DNA of 64,000 bases from Candidatus Wolfebacteria bacterium GW2011_GWE2_44_13 (GCA_001000675.1 LCHW01000001.1:463-64462), one strand, 5' to 3'; positions 7,851-60,514 are shown, counted from the stretch's first letter. Numbers and translations are program-made. The notes: a model not told the origin generated them from the sequence alone.

Positions 7851-8236
7851 GTACTCAGATATACATCGGAAACACAACCTCAGTCTTGATCCTTCTTGCG
7901 TTGGAAATATAGGCTACACATTTTACATATCACATGACACTCTTGCGTTTGTCATTCACTCTTTATCGTTTTATTTTGTCTTTTTTGAAAAAGACTTTTT
8001 TGCGTTTTACTCGCCTTACTATCCTTGCGCAACGGCTCGTTAGAAGTAGGGAAATGAGTGTACATATTTTTACAAAATCATTTCGAAATCAGTCCTTCTC
8101 TATTTTAAAATATCTACGGCGCTCGCTCCTGAGACGCAGGAGAGTTGGGGAGCAAGTCTTACAACTCACCCCTCGATACAACTACCGCCGACTCAACACA
8201 CTCACTATCCAAAACTCAACTCTTCCTACTATAACA

Positions 8237-35077: not shown

Positions 35078-35527
35078 ATGTTTGAGCTCTGGCACAACAC
35101 TAGCCCCGTACTGCTGATAACGTTCGCTCTACTGGTGATTGTCACCGCTTTTATTAACGTAAACACGGTTTTCGGCTTCACTCGAAGTGCGGGCACTTTC
35201 AATCCTTCGGCCGACGTCCTTGGCTGCCTCGGTGGAATTCTCTTTCTTTTCATCTCTCTCGGCTTTGCGTTGTATATCGGCCACAGCTCGGGAGTTATCC
35301 ATGGCGCCGGCACGCCACTGCAAAAACTAAGGGTGGGCGAGCCGTATCGCGTAGATGCAGTTGCGAGAGATGCCTTCATCCTTACGCAGGTTTCTACCGG
35401 CAGAGAGGCGTACTTTAAAATTCGCATTACGCCCACTCCTCCCCAGGTGGACGACCGTATTCTCATTGATGCTACTGGAGACTGTCATATCGTGCGGCCG
35501 AATCAAAAGCCCGTACTCAGTCCTTAA
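35078..35527 (+). CDS. Small two-TM membrane protein. Paralog of 35645..36073.
   Basis: GGAGGTG RBS 7 nt upstream. Two hydrophobic helices followed by a soluble C-terminal domain (GEPYRVDAVARDAFILTQV). Confidence 0.6.
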   Translation: MFELWHNTSPVLLITFALLVIVTAFINVNTVFGFTRSAGTFNPSADVLGCLGGILFLFISLGFALYIGHSSGVIHGAGTPLQKLRVGEPYRVDAVARDAFILTQVSTGREAYFKIRITPTPPQVDDRILIDATGDCHIVRPNQKPVLSP

Positions 35528-35537
35528 ACGTTCCTTT

Positions 35538-35567
35538 GCGCCCGCATTCATGCGGGCCTTTTTTATT
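35538..35567 (+). terminator. Intrinsic terminator GCGCCCGCATTCATGCGGGC plus T-run.
   Basis: Seen in the sequence. Confidence 0.7.
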
Positions 35568-35644
35568 ACTGCACCTTGACTTTTTTATTCATTCGTCTCA
35601 CTATATATTCAGATTTTAACTTTAACAACTGACTGGAGGTTCCT

Positions 35645-36073
35645 ATGTTCCCGAAATCTGCGTCCTTGCAAATCCGAGTTTTGTTCATTTTTTCCTTCCT
35701 TTTTGCATTTGCTGGATTATTATTCGGGTTTACTCTCCCCGATTATCTCGCAATGCTTTCGGTAAATCAGCGCTTTCCACTCTTTATGTTGTCCCTTTTC
35801 CTCCTCTTTATCGTTGCCATTTTAATGTTTTGTTTCGGGAAAGGTGCCGGCAAGGATGAGCATCGAGGGATGCCTACTAGCGACCTTGTTGCGGGGCAGG
35901 TTTATCGGGTGAAGGCGCAGTGCGAAGATTTTTTCCTCCTTTATTGCCACTCAACCAAGCAAACTATTTTCTTCTTCTCTAAAGAGAAGAGGCCTCCCTT
36001 GGTTGAACAATGCTTTATTCCTGATTATTCTGGAGACTGGTATTCGGTTGGAGACCCGCCCGAAAAGTCTTGA
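35645..36073 (+). CDS. Small two-TM membrane protein. Paralog of 35078..35527.
   Basis: GGAGGT RBS. Same architecture, with C-terminal GQVYRVKAQCEDFFLLY. Confidence 0.6.
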   Translation: MFPKSASLQIRVLFIFSFLFAFAGLLFGFTLPDYLAMLSVNQRFPLFMLSLFLLFIVAILMFCFGKGAGKDEHRGMPTSDLVAGQVYRVKAQCEDFFLLYCHSTKQTIFFFSKEKRPPLVEQCFIPDYSGDWYSVGDPPEKS

Positions 36074-39707: not shown

Positions 39708-39742
39708 ACCAAAAAGCCGGCGCATGCGCCGGCCTTTTTTAT
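39708..39742. terminator. Bidirectional terminator GCCGGCGCATGCGCCGGC flanked by A/T runs.
   Basis: Lies between convergent genes. Confidence 0.7.
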
Positions 39743-42700: not shown

Positions 42701-42945
42701 TCTTTTACAAGTTGTCGGTCATGTCGGCTGCCCTTTGCTACATAGGCTTCAAGCCCTAAAAGGGGCTTTATTCCTGCCTTTTTTGCCTTTGAATAAAATT
42801 CTACCGCTCCATATAGGTTGCCGTGATCGGTGAGCGCAAGTGCCTCCATGCCGAGTTCTTTTGCTCGATCTACAAGATCATCGATCTTTGCAAGGCCGTC
42901 GAGCAGGGAATAGTGTGAGTGGGTGTGGAGGTGGACGAATTTCAT
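39742..42945 (-). CDS. dnaE: DNA polymerase III alpha subunit.
   Basis: PHP domain start MKFVHLHTHSHYSLLDG; about 1067 aa from that ATG (the track ORF extends 10 codons upstream). Confidence 0.9.
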   Translation of the reverse strand: MKFVHLHTHSHYSLLDGLAKIDDLVDRAKELGMEALALTDHGNLYGAVEFYSKAKKAGIKPLLGLEAYVAKGSRHDRQLVKDESSGVGKKAKENYNHLTLICENETGWKNLLKLSSSSHLEGFYYKPRIDQEILEKWHEGLIALSGCLGGEIAQFCLHGRMEEAEAKAKEYVNLFGKGNFFIELWHLPNIPDAAIAVKGLREIAKKLDIPVVATKDIHYARPEDAEYQDILLAVQTGNTVNDTGRMSMMTENYAMNSAEEMAEWFADIPEAIENTNKIAERCNVELELDVVRLPKFETPGGMDSMDYLEKIIREGLSSRYKEITQEVQDRMEYEIRVIRNTGYADYFLIVQDFIKWARDHGVVVGPGRGSAAGSLVAYVLTITDVDPIKYDLLFERFLNPDRIQMPDIDIDFADKRRDEVVNYVREKYGADRVAQIITFGTMAARAAIRDAGRALGLPYAFCDQVAKLVPAPPTPVKNLAQALDAVEEMRTLYNTNPDAKKLIDAAKKLEGVARHASVHACGIIIAAEPLTNVVALQRSPQNENSVITQFEQGIIEKLGLLKMDFLGLRNLTIIEEALRLLQESTGELINISEIPLDDPKTFEVLQNGDTVGVFQFESAGMRRYLKELKPTEFEDVVAMVALYRPGPMELIPDYINRKYGREEVKLLHPLLQPILGKTYGIGIYQEQMMRIARDLAGYTLAEADTLRKAIGKKIQALLDEQEFKLIDGMIANGINEKTARKIWELFPPFAKYGFNRSHSVCYGLIGYQTAYLKAHHPIEFMTALFNSESDDIERIAFLIDEAKKHGITVAPPDINESAVNFAPQDNNIRFGLLAIKNVGSAVVEAIIEERKQNGPYESLEDVLTRVKHKDINKKSIESLTKAGVFDSFKLERGKILANMDEILRYSQTIKKNETNNQNNLFGTVYSKSVLNLRDAEPISKKDKLNWEKELLGLYISDHPLSEHKAQLMQYKVKTIRDLLLIDQKDQNKHRIAGVVTGVKKITTKNGKAMAFARIEDANESIEAIVFTETLARNPNLWTENKLIVAEGKLSAKDSEMKFICEGAVELV

Positions 42946-43107
42946 AGCAGAAGAGGTTGGCGGTGTTACCCCCATTATACGAGAAGAATCAGGTTTGTAA
43001 ACAAAAAATATTTATTCTTTTCTCCCTATTGACAGCTTTCTAAAATCCATTACTATGTATCACAAATAAAGGTCATATTTATTACTTTTACCAATTAGAA
43101 ATTTTAA

Positions 43108-43484: not shown

Positions 43485-45572
43485 ATGACCACATCTACTC
43501 ATCCCCATAAACGAGCTGACCACAAAAGGCGCAATCTTATTATTAAGATTATCTCCATATCTATTGTTCTTATCGTTGCACTTGGTATCGCTGGTGTTAT
43601 ACACGTAGCGCGTATCGCTAAGAATTTGCCTGACCCACAAAAATCGGGCAGTTGGCAAATGCAGGAATCGACCAAGCTGTATGACCGAACGGGGGAGATT
43701 CTTTTGTATGAGGTAAACGCACAAGGAAAACGCACTGTTATTCCATTTGACCAGATTCCAACAAATGCAAAGAATGCAACTGTTTCCATCGAGGATGCAG
43801 GGTTTTACAGCCACTCTGCAATTGACCTTATCGGTATTTTTCGCGCAGTGTTTATTAACCTTATGAGTGGCGAAATTACGCAAGGAGCATCCACTATCAC
43901 GCAGCAGTTGGCAAAAAATGCATTCCTTACGCCAGAACGCACGTATGCGCGAAAGATTAACGAAATTATTCTCGCATTTTGGATTGAACGGTATTACAGT
44001 AAGGATGAAATTTTAAATCTCTATCTTAATCAGATTGCGTACGGCGCCGGTGCTAACGGCATTGAAGCAGGGTCGCAAACTTATTTTGGAAAATCTGCTA
44101 AAGACTTAACACTTCTTGAAGCTACAACGCTCGCGGCTATTATTCAGCGCCCAAGCTATTATTCCCCTTGGGGCTCTCATAAAGCAGACCTTATTAAGCG
44201 CAAGGATCGTGTCTTGGAAGAAATGTACGCTGCGGGGCATATCTCCCAGAAGCAACGCGATGACAACTTAAAAATATCTCCTCGTTTTCTTGAACAAAGT
44301 ATCGGTTCTATTAAGGCACCTCATTTTTCCATGGCGGTTCGCGACTATCTTCTTAACAAGTATGGGGAAGATGTTATTAATAAAGGCGGTTTGAAAGTTA
44401 TTACTACGCTTGATTACAACCTCCAACAAGTTGCAGAACGTGTTGTAAAAGAGGGGGCTGCAAACAATGCCGAATTATATAAGGGACATAATGCTTCCCT
44501 TGTTGCGCAAGACACTAAAACAGGACAAATTCTTTCTCTTGTTGGGTCTGCTGATTATTTTGACGAAACAATTGATGGTAATTTTAACGTTGCTATTCAG
44601 GGGTTGCGACAGCCAGGATCATCCATTAAACCGTTTGCGTATATGACTGCATTCCAAAAAGGATACACGCCTGAAACTATCCTTTTTGACGTTTCTACTG
44701 AGTTCGATACGAGTGGAACAGTGAGTTATCGTCCTGAAAACTACGATCATACCTATCGCGGCCCAATTAATTTGCGCGATTCATTGGCACAATCAATAAA
44801 CGTGACCGCTGTTAAAGCACTCTATCTCGCGGGTCTTGATGATACAATTAAAAATGCTTTTGATTTTGGTCTTTCTACGTTAACCGACCCAAAGCGATAC
44901 GGCCTTTCATTTGTTCTTGGAGGAGGAGAGATTCGGTTGTTCGATATGGTTGGCGCCTATTCTGTTCTTGCACAAGATGGCATTAAACATCAGCAATCCC
45001 TTATTTTAAGTGTTGAAGATGCCCGAGGAAATCTGTTAGAGAAATATCTCGATCGTTCAACACAAGTTATTGAGGCTCAATATCCTCGTATGATTAATGA
45101 TGTTCTTTCGGATCCGGAAGCTCGACGCCCTCTTTTTCAAAACAGCTTTGATTTAACGGTATTCCCTGATCGTGATATTGCCTTAAAAACAGGAACAACA
45201 AACGATTATCGGGATGCTTGGGTTTTTGGTTATACTCCTTCGCTTGTAGTAGGTGTTTGGGCGGGGAATAACGACAATACACCAATGCAACGCAGTGGTG
45301 GTAGTATCCTTGCGGCAGTTCCTATTTGGAACGGTTTTATGGCTGAAGCATTATTAACGCAACCGACGGAAACATTTACTCGTCCTGAGCCCGTTTCTGT
45401 CGCAAAACCAATGTTCGATGGCAATTATCTTTCTAACGGAGAGATACATTCCATACTCCATTACGTTGATCGTGCAGATCCTACTGGATCTATCCCTGGG
45501 AATCCTTCTCAAGACCCCCAGTACCCGCTCTGGGAAGCCCCTGTACGCACGTGGGCAATCAACAACGGATAA
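43485..45572 (+). CDS. Class A penicillin-binding protein (bifunctional glycosyltransferase/transpeptidase, PBP1A-like).
   Basis: N-terminal TM anchor; GT51 motifs (EDAGFYSHSAID, RKINEI); transpeptidase SxxK (GSSIKPF), SxN (SLAQSIN) and KTGT. Confidence 0.9.
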   Translation: MTTSTHPHKRADHKRRNLIIKIISISIVLIVALGIAGVIHVARIAKNLPDPQKSGSWQMQESTKLYDRTGEILLYEVNAQGKRTVIPFDQIPTNAKNATVSIEDAGFYSHSAIDLIGIFRAVFINLMSGEITQGASTITQQLAKNAFLTPERTYARKINEIILAFWIERYYSKDEILNLYLNQIAYGAGANGIEAGSQTYFGKSAKDLTLLEATTLAAIIQRPSYYSPWGSHKADLIKRKDRVLEEMYAAGHISQKQRDDNLKISPRFLEQSIGSIKAPHFSMAVRDYLLNKYGEDVINKGGLKVITTLDYNLQQVAERVVKEGAANNAELYKGHNASLVAQDTKTGQILSLVGSADYFDETIDGNFNVAIQGLRQPGSSIKPFAYMTAFQKGYTPETILFDVSTEFDTSGTVSYRPENYDHTYRGPINLRDSLAQSINVTAVKALYLAGLDDTIKNAFDFGLSTLTDPKRYGLSFVLGGGEIRLFDMVGAYSVLAQDGIKHQQSLILSVEDARGNLLEKYLDRSTQVIEAQYPRMINDVLSDPEARRPLFQNSFDLTVFPDRDIALKTGTTNDYRDAWVFGYTPSLVVGVWAGNNDNTPMQRSGGSILAAVPIWNGFMAEALLTQPTETFTRPEPVSVAKPMFDGNYLSNGEIHSILHYVDRADPTGSIPGNPSQDPQYPLWEAPVRTWAINNG

Positions 45573-45647: not shown

Positions 45648-46766
45648 TCACTCCGACTTTATCGGCATGATTATATAAAAATAATCAGTTACATTCATTG
45701 GCTTTATAATCGCTGGTTTGTTATCCCCATTTAATCCAATAGTCACATTTTCTGTGGTAATACTTTTCATACCATCGAATAAGAATTTCCAGTTAAACAC
45801 AATCTCCATCGAATCTCCTTTTATTTTTGCAGGAATAAGATACTGGTTTTCTCCTAAAATCGGGTTTGATGAGAATAATTCAATATTCTTTACACCCTCT
45901 TTAATAATAACCCGAATTTCATTCATCTTATCCGAGAATGCTCCTGTTAATTTAAGTGCATTAACTAGCTGATCTCTATTTACAATTACTTCGATTGATG
46001 TTTCTTTCGGGATAATCTGCTGATAATCAGGAAAATCTCCGTTAATTACACGAGAAACGAGTTCGAATTTTTCAGTTCTAAATAATATTTGGCTTTGATC
46101 AAAATAGATCTTTATCTTTTCATCATCCTTTTCCGACATTATCCGCACAAGCTCTTGAATCGTCTTTAGTGGAACAATCATCTTCACTTTCTGTTCGATA
46201 TTCGCTTTATATCTATTTTCATTAATCGTTTTTTCCGCAAGACGGAAACTATCGGTTGCAGCAAACTTCACGAAATTTACTTGATAATCAAAGAGTATTC
46301 CTCCAAGTTCAGGACGAATCGCTGATCCTTGGCTTGCGGTAATAATCGAGAGGAATGAATCTTTTAGTAATCCACTTTCTATTTCGATATATTCCTTTTC
46401 GTTTTCTATTTTCGGAATAATTGGAAACTCTTCTTTCTTTGTTCCTTGTATTTTAGCCTGATAATTCTCTGTTTTAATAATCAAGTTATTCGCTTTTGTT
46501 TCCAAACTAACGCGCTCGCTCTCGAGATTATTAATAATCGAAGAGAGGACACTTAGCGGAACGGTAATACTCCCATCCTGTATCACTTTTGCAGGGATAA
46601 CACTTGCTATCGCCATTTCTAAATTTGTTACTGAAAACTTTATTTTATTTTCGTGTGTTTCAATAAGACAATTTTTTAAGATTGGGAGTGATGCATTTTC
46701 AGACCCAATCTTCCCAAGGGAAGCGATCCCTTCACGTAAATTTGTTTTCAGTACAATTAGTTCCAT
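45648..46766 (-). CDS. dnaN: DNA polymerase III beta sliding clamp.
   Basis: 372 aa, immediately downstream of dnaA. Confidence 0.9.
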   Translation of the reverse strand: MELIVLKTNLREGIASLGKIGSENASLPILKNCLIETHENKIKFSVTNLEMAIASVIPAKVIQDGSITVPLSVLSSIINNLESERVSLETKANNLIIKTENYQAKIQGTKKEEFPIIPKIENEKEYIEIESGLLKDSFLSIITASQGSAIRPELGGILFDYQVNFVKFAATDSFRLAEKTINENRYKANIEQKVKMIVPLKTIQELVRIMSEKDDEKIKIYFDQSQILFRTEKFELVSRVINGDFPDYQQIIPKETSIEVIVNRDQLVNALKLTGAFSDKMNEIRVIIKEGVKNIELFSSNPILGENQYLIPAKIKGDSMEIVFNWKFLFDGMKSITTENVTIGLNGDNKPAIIKPMNVTDYFYIIMPIKSE

Positions 46767-46933
46767 AGGTAAAATTTTATACTCAGTGCATTCATACTAT
46801 ATCTATTACTATATTATATTAAAAATAGTAGTAGGAGTAGTAGGGGTGTGGACAGTGTGGATAAGTGGATATAAAGGAGTAACGGAGCGGATTTTTTAAG
46901 AATTATTTTTGTGGATAACAGGGGAGTAATAAA
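46767..46933. promoter_or_regulatory. oriC: dnaA-dnaN intergenic region carrying DnaA boxes and an AT-rich segment. Candidate oriC / DNA-unwinding element.
   Basis: TGTGGATAA at 46856-46864 and 46910-46918, plus degenerate boxes (TGTGGACAG, GTGGATATA). AT-rich stretch at 46780-46845. Confidence 0.55.
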
Positions 46934-48301
46934 TCACTTACTGTTGATAACTTCTTTAATAGAAGATATCTTATTTGCTATTTTTTGATCAGAGGTAAGT
47001 AACTTCCCGATTTTATCACATGCGTGCATAACAGTTGAGTGGTCTCTTTTCCCCATCTTATGCCCGATATCTGAGTAGGACATCCCAAGGAGATCCTTCA
47101 TGAGAAACATAGCAATTTGACGAGGCTCAACAATTTCTTTTCGTCTTCCTTGATCAGTTAAATCCTTTTCGGTGAGTTCGAAGAAGTTAGAAACAACTTG
47201 CATAACCTGATTCGGGGTTACATTCTTAAACGAATGTTTTGTTGTTTTATCAATAATATCTTCTACAATCGAGCGCGTAACTTCTACGCCTTTTACGTCT
47301 TGATAAAACATAATCTTTTTCAAAACACCTTCAATTTCTCTAATATTTCGCTGCATTTTTTCAGCGATAAACTCAGTAACTGAGTCTGGGATTGAAATAT
47401 GTTCCTGTTCAAGCTTCTGTTTAATGATAGCGAGGCGCATTTCATAGTCCGGATACGATATATCCACAATCATTCCACTACTAAAGCGAGAGCGTAGGCG
47501 TTCCTCAAGAATAGAGGTTTCGTGTGGAGGACGATCAGAGGAAAGAATAATCTGCTTATCGTTGTCGTATAGCGCGTTGAATGTGTGGAAAAATTCTTCC
47601 TCACTCGCAGCTTTACCGGCGATAAATTGAATATCGTCGATAATAAGTACGTCTACTGAGCGATATATTCGCTTCATATCCTCCATTCGCTTGTTTTTAA
47701 TAGAAAATACGATGTCATTCACGAACTTTTCCGATGGAATATACTTTACTTTAATAGTATTCCCATGGGTTTGGCGTATCTGATTGCCAATAGACTGCAT
47801 CAAATGGGTCTTTCCAAGGCCGGAACCGCCATAAATGAATAGTGGGTTGTATTTCTTTCCCATGTCTTTAATAACGGCAAGGGAAGCTGCATAGGCGAGT
47901 TCATTTGAAGATCCTACAACATAGGATTTAAAGGTATATTTAGGGTGTAAATTTGTCTCAGCGTCTATTTTAAACTCGTCAAATGTGGCCTGTTGAGGTA
48001 TTGAGGAGTGTGATTTCTTTGCTTCCCCTGTTGTTTTCTGAGGTTCTACAGGCATAATTGCCACAATATAGCGCACTTTTCGTACGGAATCATCAAGAGA
48101 AATAAGGATTTCTAGGATGGATTTATGGTACTTATTTTCCACCCATTCCTTTGCAAAGTTATTAGCAAGGGAGACAACAAGTTCCCCTTCTGGAGATCGG
48201 TCAATAAGGCGGCTGTTTTTAAACCAAGTCAAAAAATTTGGCTGGGTCATTTGTACTTCGAGCTCCGCTAAAGCGGATTTCCAGAGTTGATCAAGTTCCA
48301 T
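46934..48301 (-). CDS. dnaA: Chromosomal replication initiator protein DnaA.
   Basis: 455 aa; AAA+ Walker A GGSGLGKTHL and the C-terminal DNA-binding domain. Confidence 0.95.
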   Translation of the reverse strand: MELDQLWKSALAELEVQMTQPNFLTWFKNSRLIDRSPEGELVVSLANNFAKEWVENKYHKSILEILISLDDSVRKVRYIVAIMPVEPQKTTGEAKKSHSSIPQQATFDEFKIDAETNLHPKYTFKSYVVGSSNELAYAASLAVIKDMGKKYNPLFIYGGSGLGKTHLMQSIGNQIRQTHGNTIKVKYIPSEKFVNDIVFSIKNKRMEDMKRIYRSVDVLIIDDIQFIAGKAASEEEFFHTFNALYDNDKQIILSSDRPPHETSILEERLRSRFSSGMIVDISYPDYEMRLAIIKQKLEQEHISIPDSVTEFIAEKMQRNIREIEGVLKKIMFYQDVKGVEVTRSIVEDIIDKTTKHSFKNVTPNQVMQVVSNFFELTEKDLTDQGRRKEIVEPRQIAMFLMKDLLGMSYSDIGHKMGKRDHSTVMHACDKIGKLLTSDQKIANKISSIKEVINSK

Positions 48302-51721: not shown

Positions 51722-53476
51722 TTAGATCAGTTGATAATTAATTTCCTTTACCCCATTAACTGCCTTTAGCTTAAAAATAAGTTTCTCAGCCTTTTCCTTG
51801 CTATCTATATCACATAAGATTTTAATAATAGGAAACGCAGTTTTTGAGGGAGGGTGAATATTGGTCAGATTAAGAATGTTTACTCGGGCACGAGAAATAA
51901 CACTTGAGATATCCTTTATTAATCCCAAACGGTCACTTGCAGTGATGCGTATTTCAAGCTGTGGCCCCTTGCGCAATACCGATGTTTCTTTACGAATAAC
52001 ACTGCGAATATGCTGCTTTGCAGCAGATGTTTTTGCTATCTTAAGCCACGACTCAGAAGGCTTTTTATTTTTCTGCACCAAGATGTCTACGAGGTCGCCT
52101 GATTCAATCTGGTAATCAAGCGGAACCATTTTGTTATTCACCTTTGCTCCTACGCAATGGTCGCCAATTTCGCTATGAATTTGGTACGCAAAGTCGATAG
52201 GGGTTGAGCCGGTAGGTAGGTCGATAACTTCGCCTTTCGGTGTGATGGCAAAAACGCGATGCTTAAAGAAGTCTATTTTTAGCGACTGCACAAATTCGTC
52301 TGGTCCGGTAAAATCTTTTTGCCAATTACGGAGCTGATTAACCCAGTTGAGATCAGCCTGCTTTACGGAGAAGGATTTATCTCCTGCGATAAATTCTTTA
52401 GACGTCTTTGCTTGGCTGTATGCCCAGTGAGCGGCGATACCGTTCTCCGCTTCCTCATGCATTTGTAGTGTTCGAATTTGTATTTCGGTCACTCGCTTGT
52501 CTTCGCAAAAGACGGTCGTGTGAAGACTCTTATATCCGTTTGGTTTTGGAAGCGCTATATAATCCTTAATACGACCGGGCATCGGCGGCCATAGTTGGTG
52601 CACCATGCCGAGCGCGCTATAACATTCTTCGACGGTGTTTACGATAACGCGAAGCGCAACAAAGTCATAAATTTGCTCGAGGTTCATGTCGGACCTGAGT
52701 AATTTTTTATATAAACTCGAAAGGCGTTTTGCGCGGTAATCTATTTTTATCGGCTCTATGTTTGCTTTCTTAAGTGCAGTACGCAAAAGAGGCTCAACGC
52801 GTTCAAGATATTGTACGCGCTCTTCATACTGTTCGCTTACATTTTTCTTCATCCATTCATATTCTTCCGGATGGAGATACATAAACGTAAGATCCTCCAG
52901 CTCACCCGAAAGATTTTGCATACCAAGGCGGTAGGCGAGTGGAGCGTATATTTCCAGCGTTTCCAGCGCGATACGCTTTTGTTTTAGGGAAGGGACAGAC
53001 CCAAGGGTGGTCATGTTATGTAAGCGGTCTGCGAGCTTCACAAAAACAACACGAAGGTCTTCGCTGATTGCGAGAATCATCTTACGCAGATTCTCCGCTA
53101 AATGCTCCATACGCTCATGCTCTGTTTTTACAGAGGTACGATATTTAAGATGTCCAAGCTTTGTTACGCCGTTTACTAAAAAGGCGATTTCTTCTCCAAA
53201 GTCTTTCTGTAACGTCTCGAGTTTATATGAGGTGTCTTCAACAGTGTCATGAAGCAACCCCGCGGCAATTGTCGCTGTATCAAGATCCCAGCTTGCGAGG
53301 GTGAGCGCTGTTTGGAACACGTGGTTAAAGTATGGCTCTCCAGAATTCCGTTTTTGGTTTTCGTGCGCTTTTTGCGAAGTTAAGTAGGCCTTTTTTAAAA
53401 GCTCAACTTCGGCGTCGGATAATTTTCTCCGCTTTTCTATTACTTGCAAAAGCGTTTCTAGTGAAGATTTCTGCAT
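51722..53476 (-). CDS. rel: Bifunctional (p)ppGpp synthetase/hydrolase, RelA/SpoT homolog (RSH).
   Basis: N-terminal HD hydrolase (HDTVEDT), synthetase domain, TGS and C-terminal ACT; 584 aa. Confidence 0.9.
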   Translation of the reverse strand: MQKSSLETLLQVIEKRRKLSDAEVELLKKAYLTSQKAHENQKRNSGEPYFNHVFQTALTLASWDLDTATIAAGLLHDTVEDTSYKLETLQKDFGEEIAFLVNGVTKLGHLKYRTSVKTEHERMEHLAENLRKMILAISEDLRVVFVKLADRLHNMTTLGSVPSLKQKRIALETLEIYAPLAYRLGMQNLSGELEDLTFMYLHPEEYEWMKKNVSEQYEERVQYLERVEPLLRTALKKANIEPIKIDYRAKRLSSLYKKLLRSDMNLEQIYDFVALRVIVNTVEECYSALGMVHQLWPPMPGRIKDYIALPKPNGYKSLHTTVFCEDKRVTEIQIRTLQMHEEAENGIAAHWAYSQAKTSKEFIAGDKSFSVKQADLNWVNQLRNWQKDFTGPDEFVQSLKIDFFKHRVFAITPKGEVIDLPTGSTPIDFAYQIHSEIGDHCVGAKVNNKMVPLDYQIESGDLVDILVQKNKKPSESWLKIAKTSAAKQHIRSVIRKETSVLRKGPQLEIRITASDRLGLIKDISSVISRARVNILNLTNIHPPSKTAFPIIKILCDIDSKEKAEKLIFKLKAVNGVKEINYQLI

Positions 53477-53607
53477 AATTATAGTATAGATACTATGTAG
53501 TAATTATAACGAATATGCAAACAAGCCGTTTCTTGACGCGCGCGTATATCCATGATTAAATCGGGGTAGCAAATTAAACTTCAGAAGAGAGAGGAAGGGT
53601 ACTGTGT

Positions 53608-54015
53608 ATGCCATATTTTTATGGAGATTGTAGGCGCAAGGGGATCCGGGTGACACTAAGATCCGCAAATCTAATTCATGCGCTCCTTTCAACAGGCATT
53701 TTTACAAACAAAAAATTCTCTGTCCAAGAAATGGAGATGCTCCTTCATTATTTGTGGGAGAAGAGCTCCCAAGCAACGAGTAACTCGCACAACCAAGAAG
53801 CATGGATGCGCTTGCAAATCATCCTGCGAAATCGCGGGGTGAGTGTCGAGATTTTCTCTGCGGACGAACGATTGCTTTCCGGCGCGATGGTAAATGCGCC
53901 AGCGAAAAATGTGTACCACCTATTGTGGTCTGCTGCCGTTGGACAGCCGCGCTACATCAAGCGCGAGTGGCAACTTCTTGGCAGGCAGCTCTCGTTGTTC
54001 GGTATTTTCGTATAA
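53608..54015 (+). CDS. Hypothetical protein (135 aa).
   Basis: GGAAGGG RBS; followed by the terminator GGCCCGTCT-TTCG-AGACGGGCC plus T-run at about 54028-54054. Confidence 0.45.
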   Translation: MPYFYGDCRRKGIRVTLRSANLIHALLSTGIFTNKKFSVQEMEMLLHYLWEKSSQATSNSHNQEAWMRLQIILRNRGVSVEIFSADERLLSGAMVNAPAKNVYHLLWSAAVGQPRYIKREWQLLGRQLSLFGIFV

Positions 54016-54136
54016 CCTGTTTGCAGTGGCCCGTCTTTCGAGACGGGCCTTTTGTATTAGTTGACAGCTTTTGTGCGAATTGGTTTACTAGGGGCAGAAT
54101 CATATTCTTAATAATTTAATAGAGAGGAGTTGGACT

Positions 54137-54862
54137 ATGTTGCAGACATATTCTGTAGATCAGCTTGAGTACGCGGCACGAAAGTCGGCCGCTTGGCTAA
54201 CAGTCGCTGGGATTTTTGGAGTACTTGTTTCCTATTATTGCGGATTTTTTACGGGGAAGCTCGATGCGCGGATAGGGGGTGGCCTTATTGTGTACCTGTT
54301 GCTCGTGATTATGGTCACGCATTTTTCGGAGGCGCGCGAAAAGGCAAAGTTTGGACACATTAGCGGCGCGGTCATGGAGGTGGTTGAGGGTGAGGTCGTT
54401 GGCTACCACCAAGGACCGCTTCTCTACAAGTTTTCTGAGCTGGGTGAGCGGACACTCGTTCCGTTCTCTATAGAGCGAATGACTGTGACGAGGATGATGG
54501 CGGTTGCATGGATGCCAGGGTTGATCACGACGTACACAGTTGTAATAACCGTGGGCCCAAACCCGCATCATCTGCAGGAGTACTATGAAGGTGCGTGTCA
54601 CGGCGTTGAATTCATCACGGGGAAAGTTCTCGGGACGTTTATCTTACAGAGTGCATCCCAAGAGTGGCCATTTCCTGAAATAAGCGCGCGAACGCAAAAA
54701 GGAGAGGGTGTATATACACTAACCTCCTCAATGCGGGATTTGCTTGCAAAAGAATTGAGAAGTCACGGGTTGTTGCTCTATCACGCGAGTGATTGCTCGG
54801 TCGGCGTGTGGCCGTTCCTTGAGAGTAAGAAAGGATGCGTTAGGAAAAGTGAACTTATGTAA
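54137..54862 (+). CDS. Paralog 1 of a two-TM membrane protein family (241 aa).
   Basis: N-terminal 2 TM, then the family core …VMEVVEGEVVGYHQGPLLYKFSELGERTLVP…. Own promoter (TTGACA 54061, -10 TTTACT) with the leader motif TAGGGGCAGAATCAT. Terminator GGCCCGCTT-AAAA-AGCGGGCC plus T-run at about 54868-54896. Confidence 0.65.
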   Translation: MLQTYSVDQLEYAARKSAAWLTVAGIFGVLVSYYCGFFTGKLDARIGGGLIVYLLLVIMVTHFSEAREKAKFGHISGAVMEVVEGEVVGYHQGPLLYKFSELGERTLVPFSIERMTVTRMMAVAWMPGLITTYTVVITVGPNPHHLQEYYEGACHGVEFITGKVLGTFILQSASQEWPFPEISARTQKGEGVYTLTSSMRDLLAKELRSHGLLLYHASDCSVGVWPFLESKKGCVRKSELM

Positions 54863-54977
54863 TAAGGGGCCCGCTTAAAAAGCGGGCCATTTTTTATGTA
54901 TGTAAAAAGTAAATACGAGATCCCTCGTACGTCTAATGATATATACAACGTGCATTTTTCCTTCTCACCTTCTTTTT

Positions 54978-55017
54978 AAAAGTGTCTATAACTCTTGCTA
55001 TAGCAAGAGTTATAGAC
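54978..55017. repeat. 38-bp perfect palindrome GTGTCTATAACTCTTGCTATAGCAAGAGTTATAGACAC. Twin of 50897-50935.
   Basis: Seen in the sequence. Confidence 0.6.
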
Positions 55018-55200
55018 ACTTGGGAGGCTATGATAGACATAAAAAACAGACATATTTTACAGTAGGGTATTTTTTATTTTGATTAAGAAGAGATAACCCT
55101 TGCGAGCTGATTAAATGCTCTTGAGTTGACAGCCCTGCAAAATTTGTGGTATTGACTACTCAGGACACAAACAACTTAAAAAAGAAATGGAGAGCTGGAA

Positions 55201-55890
55201 ATGAAGATTTATACGTGGGAAGAAGGGATGAAGGCGAAGCAAGGAATTGCCACGCTTAGCATTGTATGCGTGTTTATTTTCGGAGTGCTCGCGTTATGGG
55301 GGCTTCGCACTGGGTGGATTGAAGTATTTGTTGGTTCACTTATGTTTGCGGGGGGTATCGCGGTGTTGGCAGTAAACCGGCTAGATACATTTCGGGCTTT
55401 TGGGCCGGCGTTTATCGTCGACGCCAAACAAAACGTGCTCGGGTACTATCCGGAGGGAGGGTATGTCCGGAAGAGAGAACTGAAGGAAGGGGGAGGGAAG
55501 ATCATTCCCCATAAGCTCGGTCCTATCGATGAGAAGCGACAGCTCCGGGCTGTTGTCGACGGAAAGATTATGACGGTTTGCGTGCGTGCTAGAGTATTCT
55601 GTCACGCAAAGAAGCATCAACTGTATTTTGACAAGTTCTTGCGGTCTGTTCGTGGTGCGGCGCCAACGCCTAATGAGATTGTCGGCAACCTGCTTGCCGT
55701 TTTTCTGCGGCAAAATGAATCTGCGCTTCCAGGGATGTACGACACACAAGGGCAAGACAGCTGTCTTGTAATGGAGCTCCTTGTCGGAGATCTCCTTGCG
55801 GGGTATTTGCTTGACGAACTCGCGTCAAGCGCCCTCCAACTCGATGGCGTCGGGTGTAAGGTTGATGTTGAAACGTCCAGTATTTCATAA
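55201..55890 (+). CDS. Paralog 2 (most divergent) of the two-TM membrane protein family (229 aa).
   Basis: Same N-terminal two-TM layout; core …NVLGYYPEGGYVRKRELKEGGGKIIP…. Terminator GGCCTAGCTCGTTTGCC-AATA-GGCAAACGAGCTAGGCC plus T-run at about 55914-55960. Confidence 0.6.
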   Translation: MKIYTWEEGMKAKQGIATLSIVCVFIFGVLALWGLRTGWIEVFVGSLMFAGGIAVLAVNRLDTFRAFGPAFIVDAKQNVLGYYPEGGYVRKRELKEGGGKIIPHKLGPIDEKRQLRAVVDGKIMTVCVRARVFCHAKKHQLYFDKFLRSVRGAAPTPNEIVGNLLAVFLRQNESALPGMYDTQGQDSCLVMELLVGDLLAGYLLDELASSALQLDGVGCKVDVETSSIS

Positions 55891-56040
55891 TTTACGGAAG
55901 AGACTGCGTAAGGGGCCTAGCTCGTTTGCCAATAGGCAAACGAGCTAGGCCTTATTTTTTAGAAATTTTCTTGACAACCCTTTTAATATAGCGTTGAATA
56001 GGGGCAGATTCATTATCAATTTGAAAAGGAGTGTGGCGAG

Positions 56041-56724
56041 ATGAGGATGTATCCAGATGATTACAAGGAAAAAAGGGCGAGAAGAGCATTGCACGGAATC
56101 TTTGTTGGTTTATTTGTAGGTATGATCCCCGCCTACATAGGAGCGACAAAAGGGATGGGGCCTATTTTTTGGCTCGGGATAATCGGCATGTTTTTAGTCG
56201 CACTCTCCTGCATTTTGTACGCGTACTTTGTTGCTACGAAATTTGCATGGTGTGCAGGGGGTATTCTTGAGGCGCTGGACGGAAAGATTGTCACGTATCA
56301 CGCGGGACCTTTTTGCTACAAAGTTAAGGAGCTGGCGGGCGTGCAGCTTGTGCCTATTACGTTTAAACCGATTACGGTGACGCGAACATTGCGTACTGGG
56401 GTACGGCGAGGAGAGATTCTCTTATATCAGGTCGTATGCGCAGCAATACCCCTTAATCCTCAACTGTTTTACAACGCATTTCTAAGGCCCAATGAGGATG
56501 GGGAGCTTACGCCGGAAGATACGATCGGTAGACGAATCGAAGAATTCCTGGCTGAAAATGCCGAGGAAATCAGGCTGTTCTATTATCGAGGGGGCGAACA
56601 GTATGTCCTCGACATGACTCAAACAGCTGCCGAGCAGCAACTTGCGCGAGCGCTGGATGAATATGGGTTGCACTGCACCAAAGCAGTCCCCATATGTAAA
56701 ATAGAAGCCCTGTTCATTTCCTAA
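56041..56724 (+). CDS. Paralog 3 of the two-TM membrane protein family (227 aa).
   Basis: Core ILEALDGKIVTYHAGPFCYKVKELAGVQLVP. Promoter TTGACA (55971) -17- TTGAAT, then leader AGGGGCAGATTCATTATCAAT (56000-56020). Terminator GGCCCATCCGCTAGCGGATGGGCC plus T-run at 56744-56775. Confidence 0.65.
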   Translation: MRMYPDDYKEKRARRALHGIFVGLFVGMIPAYIGATKGMGPIFWLGIIGMFLVALSCILYAYFVATKFAWCAGGILEALDGKIVTYHAGPFCYKVKELAGVQLVPITFKPITVTRTLRTGVRRGEILLYQVVCAAIPLNPQLFYNAFLRPNEDGELTPEDTIGRRIEEFLAENAEEIRLFYYRGGEQYVLDMTQTAAEQQLARALDEYGLHCTKAVPICKIEALFIS

Positions 56725-56858
56725 ACAGGACGAAAATAATACAGGCCCATCCGCTAGCGGATGGGCCTTTTTTTATCCTATTAATTTTGATTGACAACGC
56801 ATTAAATATATTGTTTAATAAGGACAGATTCATTATCAATTTTGAAGGGAGAAGAGGA

Positions 56859-57533
56859 ATGAGGACATACACTTATGGGCAAAGAGGAAAAGCGTGTAAT
56901 AAAGCGCTTGCCGTGACAATGGTTGGTGCGATCATCATCTTACTTGCTGATTTATCTCTACCTAAGCCCCAATCTATTCCGTGGGTGTGCGCAGGGGTGC
57001 TCCTAGCGGTTTTCGGGCTCGCTCTAATGACCTATGTCGGGTCCCGTTTCAAGCGGTGCGAGGGAAGCGTACTCGAGGTGTTGGATGGGAAGGTTGTTAC
57101 ACACCATGCAGAACCCTTTTACTACAAGCTGAAGGAGTTGGGTGGTGTGCAGCTTGTCTCGGTGCCTATGGACGCCTTCAGTGTTTCGAAAAAAGTCTTC
57201 TTTACGGCTGGCCAAGGGGTCGCTTCTTTTGAGCTGGAATGCTTCATAGGTGTCGTAAACTGGCAGAACTTTTATGATGCGTTCTTGCGTCAGGGTGAGT
57301 GTCAGACTGCACGAACGCCAAAAGAAGTGGCCGAATTGTCTCTGAGGAGTTTTCTTAAGGGATATTTCTTCTTCGGAAAGATGTACTACGACAGTGGGTG
57401 TTCTGAGGAATTTGTCTGCGTGGCAACAACCCCTCTTGCTGAGGCGCATCTTCAACGACAGCTTGCTACGCACGGTCTCGGGTGCTCAATGGTTAAACCC
57501 AAGTTTCAGAATGATACGCACTTTATTCTGTGA
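56859..57533 (+). CDS. Paralog 4 of the two-TM membrane protein family (224 aa from ATG 56859).
   Basis: Core VLEVLDGKVVTHHAEPFYYKLKELGGVQLV. Promoter TTGACA (56791) -17- TTTAAT, leader AAGGACAGATTCATTATCAAT (56820-56840), RBS GGGAGAAGAGGAATG. An identical terminator GGCCCATCCGCTAGCGGATGGGCC lies at 57561-57592. The track ORF start at 56787 lies inside the promoter. Confidence 0.65.
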   Translation: MRTYTYGQRGKACNKALAVTMVGAIIILLADLSLPKPQSIPWVCAGVLLAVFGLALMTYVGSRFKRCEGSVLEVLDGKVVTHHAEPFYYKLKELGGVQLVSVPMDAFSVSKKVFFTAGQGVASFELECFIGVVNWQNFYDAFLRQGECQTARTPKEVAELSLRSFLKGYFFFGKMYYDSGCSEEFVCVATTPLAEAHLQRQLATHGLGCSMVKPKFQNDTHFIL

Positions 57534-57589
57534 ACCTCTTGATCTGGTTAAAATGCACAAGGCCCATCCGCTAGCGGATGGGCCTTTTT

Positions 57590-59704
<2,115 letters not shown>

Positions 59705-59957: not shown

Positions 59958-60092
59958 TGGGGTGTAGCTCAGTAGGTAGAGCGTCTCTTGGTTTTATCGC
60001 GACCTGTTTCTGAAAAATAGAACAATTGGCCCACAAAGGCCCGCGCGGTAATCAAGAGGAGGTCGCGGGTTCGAATCCCGTCACTCCAGCCA
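59958..60092 (+). tRNA. tRNA-like gene (135 nt) with canonical acceptor, D- and T-arms and encoded CCA, but an insertion of about 60 nt in place of a normal anticodon loop.
   Basis: 5' TGGGGTG-TA-GCTCAGTAGGTAGAGC-G-TCTCT...; 3' ...AGAGG-AGGTC-GCGGGTTCGAATCCCGT-CACTCCA-G-CCA. Between the putative anticodon-stem halves (TCTCTTG/CAAGAGG) lies TTTTATCGCG...GGCCCACAAAGGCCC...CGCGGTAAT, which forms an extended helix. Identity undetermined. Confidence 0.55.
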
Positions 60093-60326: not shown

Positions 60327-60415
60327 GTGCATATAGCTCAGTAGGTAGAGCACCGGACCTGTCTTCTGACAGATGTATGCGGAGGTCGCGGGTTCGAATC
60401 CCGTTATGCACGCCA
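60327..60415 (+). tRNA. tRNA gene (89 nt incl. CCA) with D- and T-arms identical to 59958..60092 but a non-canonical anticodon region (20 nt between stem halves CCGGA/TGCGG containing hairpin CTGTC-TTCT-GACAG).
   Basis: GTGCATA-TA-GCTCAGTAGGTAGAGC-A-CCGGA-CCTGTCTTCTGACAGATGTA-TGCGG-AGGTC-GCGGGTTCGAATCCCGT-TATGCAC-G-CCA. Shares GACCTGTYTTCTGA with the insert of 59958..60092. Confidence 0.55.
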
Positions 60416-60439: not shown

Positions 60440-60514
60440 CGGGAGGTGGCGCAGCCTGGTAGCGCGCTTGTCACCAGCAAGAGGCCGGTGGTTCAAATCC
60501 ACTCCTCCCGACCA
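60440..60514 (+). tRNA. tRNA gene (75 nt incl. encoded CCA); anticodon not resolved with confidence.
   Basis: CGGGAGG-TG-GCGC-AGCCTGGTA-GCGC-G-CTTGT-CACCAGC-AAGAG-GCC-GGTGG-TTCAAAT-CCACT-CCTCCCG-A-CCA. The D and T loops match initiator-like loops. The anticodon arm is atypical: the best reading is CCA (Trp-like) but with A at position 33 and a 3-nt variable loop. Needs tRNAscan-SE or ARAGORN. Confidence 0.6.

What the first reader, a model, noticed from the sequence alone, without database searches (positions are those of the whole stretch)
54061..57592. Tandem array of four paralogous two-TM membrane proteins, each an independent transcription unit sharing a promoter and leader module
Genes 54137-54862, 55201-55890, 56041-56724 and 56859-57533 share architecture. 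Each has two N-terminal TM helices and a conserved core (V/I)LE(V/A)LDGK(V/I)VT(Y/H)HA(G/E)PF(C/Y)YK(V/L)KEL(A/G)GVQLV, followed by a divergent C-terminal domain. Three of them carry the same promoter build: TTGACA, a 17-nt spacer, TT(G/T)A(A/C)T, then immediately the motif aGG(g/a)GCAGA(T/A)TCAT(T/A)TC at the predicted transcript start (54089, 56000, 56820). The last two share an identical terminator (GGCCCATCCGCTAGCGGATGGGCC). This points to recent duplication plus a common operator or leader element. Tandem, individually terminated paralogs with variable C-termini resemble immunity or receptor-diversification cassettes. The function is unknown. The pair at 35078-36073 has a similar layout and may be a second, more distant family.
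Basis: partly seen in the sequence, partly recalled or inferred. Interest (0 to 1): 0.65.

Follow-up and report, generated by a model that had tools for sequence, protein, structure and literature searches.

The report
Hidden SPFH-fold membrane protein gene array
Four neighbouring genes of a tiny uncultured groundwater bacterium (Candidatus Wolfebacteria) encode very diverged copies of a small membrane-anchored protein predicted to have the fold of stomatin/prohibitin (SPFH) scaffolds. Each gene has its own strong promoter and terminator, so this is an unrecognised, fast-evolving, stripped-down branch of a well-known protein superfamily, not a wholly new system.

Summary
Four intact ORFs (54137-54862, 55201-55890, 56041-56724, 56859-57533) are true homologues. 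Each has an N-terminal two-helix membrane hairpin, a perfect TTGACA -35 box upstream and an intrinsic terminator downstream. Three share a motif, YAGAWTCAT(T/A)..C, at the predicted +1.

- **Age:** the copies are ancient paralogues, not recent duplicates. Third-codon-position identity is about 0.32, near random.
- **Domains:** the supposed variable C-terminal domain is the second half of a single domain.
- **35078-36073 pair:** it is unrelated.
- **Fold:** two independent AlphaFold models hit only SPFH/Band-7 structures at the top (stomatin, prohibitin, HflK/C, flotillin, QmcA). No sequence model detects this. The proteins end where the SPFH domain ends, with no coiled-coil.
- **Family size:** 18 cluster representatives out of 1.84 billion.
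- **Location:** almost all members lie in one island between relA/spoT and ligA in related Wolfebacteria. Flanking genes are 79-88% identical there, island proteins only about 20-35%.
- **Motif:** it recurs upstream of homologues in three other genomes, so it is under selection.

Best reading: co-regulated, possibly hetero-oligomerising, cytoplasm-facing mini-SPFH membrane scaffolds. A role in phage or host conflict is not excluded. This is a new variant of a known kind, of moderate interest.

The parts
53608..54015 (+). Small soluble 'partner' gene (135 aa). It belongs to an orphan family found just upstream of a mini-SPFH gene in related genomes.
   Evidence: Homologues occupy the same position in L005, L007, L008, L010/L043, L044, L045 and L047 (window vs L005 E 2e-17, vs L047 E 4e-19). 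There is no Pfam, PDB or PHROG match. Only 6 clusters were found among 5.8 billion proteins.
54028..54049 (+). Intrinsic terminator after the partner gene
   Evidence: 9-bp stem with 7 GC pairs, followed by a T run.
54061..54109 (+). Promoter and leader of gene 1: -35 TTGACA (54061-54066), -10 TTTACT (54084-54089), +1 motif CAGAATCATATTCTT (54095-54109)
54137..54862 (+). Gene 1, mini-SPFH paralogue (241 aa)
   Evidence: Leave-out profile E 7.9e-35. Its own AlphaFold model (pLDDT 74) hits prohibitin, stomatin and HflK/C first.
54868..54888 (+). Terminator of gene 1
55126..55200 (+). Promoter and leader of gene 2: TTGACA at 55126-55131, probably TGG-TATTGA as an extended -10. It lacks the shared motif. 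Its leader (GACACAAACAAC ... GAAATGGAGAG) resembles that of its closest relative, P0015, in L046.
55201..55890 (+). Gene 2, mini-SPFH paralogue (229 aa). It belongs to a different subfamily, with P0015, P0016 and P0018.
   Evidence: E 3.5e-21 against a profile lacking its own subfamily.
55912..55953 (+). Terminator of gene 2 (19-bp stem)
55971..56019 (+). Promoter and leader of gene 3: -35 TTGACA (55971-55976), -10 TTGAAT (55994-55999), +1 motif CAGATTCATTATCAA (56005-56019)
56041..56724 (+). Gene 3, mini-SPFH paralogue (227 aa)
   Evidence: The AlphaFold model has pLDDT 92.9 and pTM 0.78. The top 22 PDB hits and the top 12 viral hits are all SPFH/Band-7 proteins.
56743..56787 (+). Terminator of gene 3 plus a 20-nt tail. 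It is 98% identical to 57560-57604 and so carries a copy of the last five codons of ligA.
   Evidence: The ligA stop is at 57590.
56791..56839 (+). Promoter and leader of gene 4: -35 TTGACA (56791-56796), -10 TTTAAT (56814-56819), +1 motif CAGATTCATTATCAA (56825-56839)
56859..57533 (+). Gene 4, mini-SPFH paralogue (224 aa)
57559..57586 (.). Terminator shared by gene 4 (+) and the convergent ligA (-)
   Evidence: Called on both strands. ligA is 57590-59689 (-).

Best explanation
**What it is**
- The four genes are ancient, strongly diverged paralogues of a small, lineage-restricted family of membrane proteins in Candidatus Wolfebacteria (CPR/Parcubacteria).
- Each protein has a short basic N-terminal tail, a two-helix membrane hairpin and one SPFH (stomatin/prohibitin/flotillin/HflK-C) domain.
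- The protein ends exactly where the SPFH domain ends. It lacks the coiled-coil and C-terminal cap segments of canonical SPFH proteins.
- The positive-inside rule places the N-tail and the SPFH domain in the cytoplasm. So does a predicted contact between the N-terminus and the SPFH domain.
- The genes lie in a hypervariable island between relA/spoT and ligA, next to the replication origin. In related genomes this island always holds one to four such genes, usually with a small soluble partner gene.

**How it is expressed**
- Each gene is a separate transcription unit: a perfect -35 TTGACA, a spacer of 17-18 nt, a weak or extended -10, a strong Shine-Dalgarno sequence and an intrinsic terminator.
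- Genes 1, 3 and 4 begin their predicted transcripts with the same 14-15 nt motif, YAGAWTCATTATCAA.
- I read this motif as a shared operator overlapping +1, or as a 5'-terminal mRNA signal, that co-regulates the copies.

**Inferred mechanism**
- Like other SPFH proteins, the copies self-associate laterally on the inner face of the membrane. Because they are co-expressed paralogues, they may form mixed oligomers as HflK/HflC, PHB1/2 and flotillin 1/2 do.
- They would thereby corral or regulate membrane proteins or lipids.
- Without coiled-coils they would form open rings or patches rather than closed cages.

**Shown versus inferred**
- Shown: paralogy, architecture, predicted fold, synteny, hypervariability, conservation of the motif.
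- Inferred: topology, oligomerisation, scaffold function, what the motif binds.
- The confidence of 0.55 is for the whole statement. For the shown part alone (a diverged SPFH-fold family in a hypervariable island, with separate units and a selected +1 motif) I would put it at about 0.8. For the scaffold mechanism alone, about 0.4.
For: **Homology and size of the family**
- Word-index searches of 5.8 billion proteins found only self-matches or a few unnamed metagenome proteins.
- An exhaustive profile search of 1.84 billion representatives found 18 proteins of 182-241 aa (all but one truncated member 210 aa or more) with the same architecture.

**Fold**
- The gene 3 model (pLDDT 92.9) hits stomatin, prohibitin, HflK/C, flotillin and QmcA as PDB ranks 1-22. 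Foldseek probability is 0.99-1.00, E goes down to 3.7e-5, and TM-score normalised to isolated SPFH domains is 0.45-0.57.
- An independent gene 1 model, built from a 4-sequence alignment, gives the same answer.
- The order of secondary-structure elements matches the Band-7 domain layout as I know it: beta strands, a long beta hairpin, three helices, then a final strand after a conserved GL. The chain ends at residue 227.

**Island**
- Synteny between relA and ligA holds in L005, L007, L009, L046 and L047.
- Between genomes, LigA is 72-83% identical and RelA 79-88%. Members are 13-40% identical and the partner 27-36%.
- Several members per island also occur elsewhere: L005, L007, L044 and L046.

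**Transcription units**
- Searches support separate promoters and terminators.

**Motif under selection**
- It sits at a fixed distance of 28-29 nt after TTGACA in w1, w3, w4, L002, L005 and L007. The spacers between -35 and -10 are unrelated in sequence, and the downstream proteins are only about 30% identical.
- The YAG at +1 is kept in all ten promoters of this type.

**Topology**
- The N-tail plus the post-hairpin segment carry about 3-6 K/R residues (my count from the sequences), against at most 2 in the very short loop between the two helices; the hydrophobic segments are.
- The model shows an N-terminal beta bridge to the domain.
Against: - No sequence method links the family to Band-7. 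Pfam gave nothing even at E <= 10 for all 18 members. NCBIfam, PADLOC, PHROGs and PDB sequence searches were also negative.
- The fold assignment rests on predicted structures. TM-scores normalised to the query are only 0.4-0.5, and the rmsd is 4-12 A.
- The coiled-coil, the main oligomerisation element of characterised SPFH cages, is absent. Oligomerisation may therefore not occur.
- No FtsH, NfeD or other usual SPFH client gene is adjacent.
- Extreme divergence beside 80%-identical neighbours is unusual for a housekeeping scaffold.
- The promoters, the +1 position and the terminators are all predictions. There is no expression data.
- The motif was seen only in close relatives (same genus or family level). 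It is degenerate in L008-L010 and absent from gene 2.
Confidence: 0.55

Rival explanations
1. **Conflict system.** The island is a phage-defence, superinfection-exclusion or host-interaction locus. The membrane-anchored SPFH-fold proteins, with the small partner, would sense or block an invader at the membrane. The arms race would drive their extreme divergence and their copy-number variation.
For: - Island proteins are only 13-40% identical while the flanking LigA and RelA are 72-88% identical.
- Gene number and subfamily content differ in every genome examined.
- Non-coding flanks are far better conserved than the coding interiors: terminator 98%, promoter and leader 80%. This fits cassette exchange between conserved flanks.
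- Phages and giant viruses also carry SPFH proteins.
Against: - There is no hit to any PADLOC defence model or PHROG.
- No nuclease, toxin, NTPase or other effector is in the island in any genome.
- The locus is embedded in core genes next to dnaA/dnaN, with no integrase or other mobility gene.
- The variable domain is predicted to be cytoplasmic, not surface-exposed.
- A full-text search for SPFH together with 'phage defense' returned three papers, and in those checked the two terms are unrelated.
Confidence: 0.25
2. **Not SPFH at all.** The fold match would be a coincidence of a small alpha/beta domain. The proteins would then be some other kind of two-TM membrane protein, such as holin-like proteins, small transport regulators, or immunity proteins of an unrecognised toxin system.
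For: - There is no sequence-level link to Band-7.
- TM-scores are moderate.
- There are weak sub-threshold Pfam hits of the TM region to LydA and P21 holins (E 0.0097 and 0.1).
Against: - Two independently built models and two structure libraries give SPFH proteins, and only SPFH proteins, at the top.
- The element order and the conserved GL-plus-final-strand match the Band-7 domain layout.
- The holin hits cover only hydrophobic helices and lie far below the gathering thresholds.
- No toxin gene is nearby.
Confidence: 0.1
3. **Recent duplication and decay**. A recent tandem duplication produced the array, and the copies are now drifting or decaying. On this view the shared promoter, leader and terminator are merely leftover duplicated DNA.
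For: - The terminator and its tail are 98% identical between genes 3 and 4. The copy after gene 3 includes a duplicated fragment of the ligA 3' end.
- The promoter and leader of genes 3 and 4 are 80% identical over 69 nt.
Against: - Third-codon-position identity between any two copies is 0.25-0.36, against about 0.26 expected at random.
- Genes 1, 2 and 3/4 fall in different old subfamilies that have members in other genomes.
- All four ORFs are intact and keep the family's conserved positions.
- The same motif stands upstream of genes only about 30% identical in other genomes, beside unrelated spacers.
- Only the terminator segment looks recently copied or converted.
Confidence: 0.03

Closest known systems
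SPFH / Band-7 superfamily (stomatin, prohibitin, flotillin, HflK/HflC, QmcA/YbbK, bacterial FloA/FloT)
   Same: - N-terminal membrane anchor followed by an alpha/beta SPFH domain; this is the best structural match in the PDB and in viral structure sets.
- A hairpin anchor with a cytoplasm-facing domain, as in stomatin and flotillins.
- Adjacent paralogues, as with HflK/HflC, PHB1/2 and flotillin 1/2, which co-assemble (established knowledge of these families).
   Different: - No detectable sequence similarity to Pfam Band_7.
- No coiled-coil or C-terminal cap region; about 225 aa in total, against 255-420 aa for the matched chains.
- No NfeD or FtsH neighbour.
- Extreme divergence between close genomes.
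- One promoter and one terminator per gene instead of an operon.
- A conserved motif at +1.
The twelve prokaryotic SPFH subfamilies of Hinderhofer et al. 2009 (PMC2636767)
   Same: Membrane-anchored prokaryotic SPFH proteins, often several per genome, with patchy distribution.
   Different: - Those subfamilies were defined by sequence and by conserved operon partners (NfeD, FtsH link). This family has neither.
[quoted passage not shown] Here a reduced-genome CPR bacterium carries four cryptic SPFH-fold genes.
Arrays of immunity or receptor-diversification cassettes (for example orphan immunity genes downstream of polymorphic toxin loci)
   Same: Tandem diverged paralogues in a hypervariable slot between conserved genes, with conserved non-coding flanks.
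   Different: No toxin or effector gene is in or next to the island. The proteins have an SPFH fold. The locus is present in every related genome examined and lies among core genes near oriC.

Membership tests
SPFH / Band-7 superfamily | Alpha/beta SPFH-domain fold | tested here: met
   For predicted structures only. Foldseek probability is 0.99-1.00 to stomatin, prohibitin, HflK/C, flotillin and QmcA from two independent models. TM-score normalised to isolated SPFH domains is 0.45-0.57.
SPFH / Band-7 superfamily | Sequence match to Band_7 profiles (Pfam PF01145 and relatives) | tested here: not met
   None of the 18 family members matches any Band-7 model even at E <= 10. A PDB sequence profile search found no SPFH chain.
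SPFH / Band-7 superfamily | N-terminal membrane anchor (TM helix or hairpin) | tested here: met
   Two hydrophobic helices by hydropathy and in the models.
SPFH / Band-7 superfamily | C-terminal coiled-coil (CC1/CC2) and cap that build the ring or cage | tested here: not met
   The model ends with the last SPFH strand at residues 210-223 of 227. No long C-terminal helix follows. All family members are 182-241 aa.
SPFH / Band-7 superfamily | Formation of large homo- or hetero-oligomers on membranes | not testable with these tools
   This needs multimer prediction or biochemistry.
Stomatin-NfeD / HflKC-FtsH type operons | Adjacent NfeD-family or FtsH-related partner gene | tested here: not met
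   The neighbours are RelA/SpoT, LigA and the orphan partner. The partner has no Pfam, NCBIfam or PDB match.
Known anti-phage defence systems (PADLOC) | Match to a defence-protein model | tested here: not met
   No hit at E <= 1 for the four proteins or the partner.
Holins | Significant match to a holin family and a phage lysis-cassette context | tested here: not met
   There is only a sub-threshold match of the TM region (16.4 bits against a cut-off of 28.4). No endolysin or phage genes are nearby.
Structured 5'-UTR RNA element (riboswitch or leader) | Conserved secondary structure with covariation, or an Rfam match | tested here: not met
   RNAalifold predicts no pairs for six leaders. Rfam finds only tRNAs in the window.

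The most novel reading that the evidence does not exclude
The relA-ligA island may be a previously unknown kind of membrane-based conflict or self-recognition module of CPR bacteria. In it, coiled-coil-less SPFH-fold proteins and their small soluble partner would be the only components. They would diversify by cassette exchange between conserved promoter/leader and terminator flanks, and a dedicated regulator would switch them through the conserved +1 motif.
Probability: 0.15. Interest if true: 0.75.

Novelty: new variant of a known kind. Interest (0 to 1): 0.5.

Why it matters
- **A hidden branch of a well-known superfamily.** The SPFH superfamily has members that no sequence profile can see, here in the poorly understood Candidate Phyla Radiation. 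These members are a natural minimal version: hairpin plus SPFH1/2, with no coiled-coil. They could test which parts of SPFH proteins are needed for membrane binding, lateral assembly and client regulation.
- **A contrast with reduced genomes.** Organisms with no SPFH protein are reported to be almost exclusively endosymbionts or endoparasites (PMC2636767). Here a reduced-genome symbiont keeps four copies in a dedicated, fast-evolving locus.
- **A handle on CPR gene regulation.** The conserved +1 motif and the perfectly conserved -35 box give a rare, testable cis-regulatory element in CPR bacteria, whose gene regulation is almost unstudied.
- **A possible new link.** If the hypervariability reflects an arms race, it would tie SPFH scaffolds to phage or host conflict.

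Tried and rejected
1. **Sequence family searches.** Pfam, NCBIfam, PADLOC, PHROGs and PDB sequence searches on the four proteins and the partner gave nothing above noise.
2. **Scan of species-representative genomes.** A scan with a gene 3/4 pattern found no relative.
3. **Metagenome-wide scan for the motif.** TTGACA-N28/29-YAGAWTCATTWYCAA gave 32 hits. None is next to a family member, and most look like chance matches in AT-rich coding DNA. One, L024/L025, is a real-looking promoter of thyA-folA.
4. **RNA-structure reading of the leader.** There are no consensus pairs.
5. **Fur-box reading of the motif.** Only one half-site, ATTATCA, matches the 7-1-7 Fur consensus. The other half matches 3 of 7 positions by my inspection. 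Rejected.
6. **GANTC methylation-site reading.** GAWTC sits inside the motif, but GANTC is not depleted or enriched in the window (181 observed, 195 expected). Dropped.
7. **Upstream ORF in the leader.** There is no ribosome-binding site and the frame is not conserved between copies. Rejected by inspection.
8. **Relation of the 35078-36073 pair to this family.** hhalign probability is below 1%.
10. **dN/dS.** It cannot be computed because synonymous sites are saturated.

Full report
**Where the window comes from**

- Exact matches name the source as Candidatus Wolfebacteria bacterium GW2011_GWC2_39_22. The proteins are UT41_C0001G0038 and UT41_C0001G0040, also deposited as ACD_81. This is a CPR/Parcubacteria genome on a 789,550-bp contig.
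- The region is core chromosome beside the origin. The nearby genes are dnaE (39742-42975), PBP1a (43485-45572), dnaN (45648-46766), dnaA (46934-48301), a methyltransferase, a DUF2238 protein, relA/spoT (51722-53476, minus strand), the array, ligA (57590-59689, minus strand), tRNAs and topA.
- Cumulative GC skew has its minimum at about 48-52 kb.

**Checking the observation**

- The four ORFs exist as described.
- Pairwise BLASTP is significant for most pairs: g3-g4 7e-29, g1-g3 2e-15, g1-g4 3e-9, g2-g3 3e-8. Profiles that exclude the window's own sequences score all four at E <= 1.5e-32.
- Hydropathy and both AlphaFold models show two N-terminal hydrophobic helices.
- TTGACA occurs only 18 times on both strands of the 64-kb window. 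Four of these stand 69-76 nt upstream of the four start codons.
- TTGACA-N17-TNNANT occurs four times against 0.85 expected, three of them here.
- The motif GGRGCAGAWTCAT is exact at 54091 and 56001 and has two mismatches at 56821.
- Terminator-like hairpins follow the partner gene and each of the four genes: 16 in 4.6 kb against 5.0 +/- 2.5 in shuffles.
- The 24-nt palindrome GGCCCATCCGCTAGCGGATGGGCC occurs only at 56744 and 57561.
- Gene 2 has a differently built promoter without the motif.
- The consensus promoter scan did not call any of these promoters, because the -10 hexamers lack A at position 2. Across ten homologous promoters the better register may be an extended -10, with a G at about -14 followed by TTATAT-like bases.

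**Not a recent duplication**

- Codon-aligned comparison gives 22-32% amino-acid identity. Third-position identity is 0.25-0.36, close to the roughly 0.26 expected from composition.
- In a tree of the soluble domain, genes 3 and 4 join only weakly. Gene 1 stands alone. Gene 2 groups with P0015, P0016 and P0018 from other genomes.
- Against this background the non-coding DNA is strikingly similar. The promoter and leader of genes 3 and 4 are 80% identical over 69 nt. The terminator and its tail are 98% identical over 45 nt.
- The second terminator copy overlaps the last five codons of ligA (57590-57604). The copy after gene 3 (56773-56787) is therefore a duplicated ligA fragment. That segment must have been copied or converted recently, whereas the coding interiors are old.

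**What the proteins are**

- No sequence library recognises them.
- The family is tiny. Word-index searches of 5.8 billion proteins returned only self-matches or a few unnamed metagenome proteins. An exhaustive HMM search of 1.84 billion cluster representatives returned 18 proteins at E <= 1e-3. The 14 that are not from this window are 182-235 aa, with the same two-helix N-terminus.
- The only invariant residue is Q141 (gene 3 numbering), in an LQxFYDAFL helix. Other recurrent features are the N-terminal M(R/K)xY, a Cys-x-Gly after the second helix, the (V/I)LEVxDGKV strand region and a C-terminal GL.
- With this 18-sequence alignment AlphaFold gives a confident model of gene 3 (pLDDT 92.9, pTM 0.78). 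It has helices 7-37 and 40-67, strands between 68 and 137 including a long hairpin (111-120 and 125-137), helices 140-148, 158-172 and 174-206, and a final strand 210-223.
- Foldseek against the PDB returns SPFH proteins at ranks 1-22: human stomatin, prohibitin, HflK/C, flotillin, QmcA and isolated stomatin SPFH domains. Probability is 0.99-1.00, E goes down to 3.7e-5, and sequence identity is 8-13%.
- The top 12 viral predicted structures are all annotated SPFH/Band-7, HflK/HflC-like or prohibitin-domain proteins, or are unnamed. The best is a Pandoravirus SPFH protein (E 4.8e-6, rmsd 4.1 A over 169 columns).
- The lower-confidence gene 1 model, built from only the four paralogues, gives the same list.
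- The element order corresponds to the Band-7 domain layout as I know it. That layout ends with a helix followed by 'G(I/L)-x-V' in a final strand. Here the chain stops a few residues after that strand, so the coiled-coil wall and cap of canonical SPFH cages are missing.
- Charge distribution and the predicted contact between the N-terminus and the domain place the SPFH domain in the cytoplasm, as in stomatin and flotillins (inference).

**Genomic behaviour of the family**

- Contigs carrying relatives are syntenic with the window wherever enough DNA is available.
  - L005: relA, truncated member, partner, member, 73-aa ORF, member (P0007), ligA.
  - L007: two distant members, partner, member (P0008), ligA. 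The two distant members score hhalign probability 67% and 93.5% against the family and 7e-15 against each other.
  - L009: partner, member, ligA.
  - L046: relA, two members, ligA.
  - L047: relA, partner, one member, ligA.
- One member (P0014, L001) lies elsewhere as a single copy, upstream of ruvC with nusA further along on the other side.
- Between these genomes LigA is 72-83% identical and RelA 79-88%. Members are 13-40% identical and the partner 27-36%.
- The island is therefore always present but hypervariable in sequence, copy number and subfamily content. In all examined genomes it contains only this superfamily and the partner, apart from one unassigned 73-aa ORF in L005.
- The partner (window 53608-54015) is a small soluble orphan protein with two 'LW' helix motifs and a conserved C-terminal end. 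It has no match anywhere.

**The shared leader**

- Ten promoters of this type, from the window and from L002, L005, L007, L008, L009, L010 and L044, were anchored on the -35 box. All ten have TTGAC(A/T), a 17-18 nt spacer of unrelated sequence, a T-rich -10 and YAG five nucleotides later. That position is where transcription should start.
- Six continue with AGAWTCAT(T/A)(A/T)(T/C)C(A/T)(A/T). The form is CAGATTCATTATCAA in genes 3 and 4, TAGAATCATTATCAA in L002, TAGATTCATTACCAA in L005 and TAGAATCATTTTCAA in L007. L047 keeps TAGAAT.
- The spacers are random and the proteins are only about 30% identical, so this block is under selection.
- It forms no conserved RNA structure. It has no Rfam match. 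It occurs nowhere else in the window.
- I therefore read it as an operator overlapping +1, or as a linear 5'-terminal mRNA signal. The data cannot separate these two readings.
- Other subfamilies carry their own conserved leaders (see the items noticed in passing). This suggests that tight control of expression is a general property of these genes.

**Mechanism and rivals**

- The best-supported reading is a set of co-regulated, cytoplasm-facing, membrane-anchored mini-SPFH proteins. By analogy with HflK/C, PHB1/2 and flotillin 1/2, they would associate laterally, perhaps as mixed oligomers, and organise or regulate membrane components. This functional step is inferred.
- The hypervariability next to conserved neighbours, and the conserved flanks around saturated interiors, keep a conflict role alive (phage or host), at about one chance in four. 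However, no defence model, effector or mobility gene supports it.
- A spurious fold match is unlikely, given three concordant searches.
- The recent-duplication reading is contradicted for the coding regions.

**Novelty**

- Full-text searches found no paper that links SPFH proteins with CPR bacteria, Wolfebacteria or phage defence in substance.
- The classification of prokaryotic SPFH proteins (PMC2636767) rests on sequence and on operon partners, and this family has neither.
- I rate it a new variant of a known kind: an SPFH fold that is sequence-cryptic, lacks the coiled-coil, and is arrayed in a hypervariable island with a conserved +1 motif.
- Interest is moderate (0.5). The fold assignment removes much of the mystery. 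The evolutionary pattern and the regulatory motif remain unexplained and testable.

Noticed in passing
window 54980-55021: A perfect 42-bp palindrome (21+21 nt, no loop): AAGTGTCTATAACTCTTGCTA/TAGCAAGAGTTATAGACACTT. It lies in the unusually long (338 nt) gap between genes 1 and 2. It is not followed by a T run and its function is unknown.
   Followed up: partly
window 56773-56787 vs 57590-57604: The terminator repeat after gene 3 carries a copy (12 of 13 nt) of the last five codons of the convergent ligA gene. This terminator segment was therefore copied or converted recently, although the flanking coding sequences are saturated.
   Followed up: yes
L007 100-208 and 900-1015; L043 1040-1154; L044 90-187; L045 30-119; L047 3040-3122: A second conserved leader type stands upstream of the partner-containing operons in related genomes. 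It has TTGAC(G/A/T), then a short hairpin whose stem changes in a compensatory way (GTGGA/TCCAC, GCGGG/CCCGC, GCGGAA/TTCCGC), followed by (A/T)TTTACAA(C)GG and the ribosome-binding site. The window's own partner gene (upstream region 53477-53607) lacks it.
   Followed up: partly
L001 7900-8000; L046 1830-1938 and 2610-2711: A third conserved promoter and leader type serves the more distant subfamily: TTGACATT(C/T)CT ... (T/C)ATAA(G/A)(G)GAA(A)(A)C(C)AG(A/G/T)(A)C(C)TTA.
   Followed up: no
L024 6519-6567 and L025 4742-4790: In an unrelated large metagenome contig the same build, TTGACA-17-TTATAT-5-CAGAATCATTATCAA, precedes a thyA-folA operon. It is either chance or a sign that this +1 sequence is used more widely.
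   Followed up: partly
window 35078-35527 and 35645-36073: Two adjacent paralogues (E 1e-8) encode small two-TM proteins with a short C-terminal domain. Each has its own TTGAC-type promoter-like sequence and terminator. They are unrelated to the SPFH-fold family.
   Followed up: partly
window 7934-21892: A giant ORF of 4652 aa on the + strand, not examined.
   Followed up: no
window 59958-60089, 60327-60415, 60440-60514: Rfam calls a tRNA that spans 132 nt, suggesting an insertion or intron, and ARAGORN does not find it. ARAGORN reports the next tRNA with an undetermined two-base anticodon and the third as tRNA-Gly with the unusual anticodon ACC.
   Followed up: no
window 45648-48301 and skew profile: dnaN and dnaA lie next to the cumulative GC-skew minimum (about 48-52 kb). 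The array therefore sits within about 6-10 kb of the probable replication origin, and its genes are co-oriented with replication.
   Followed up: partly
L005 2749-3138: A 129-aa ORF looks like the C-terminal half of a distant family member without its membrane hairpin. It is possibly a decayed copy (by eye only).
   Followed up: no
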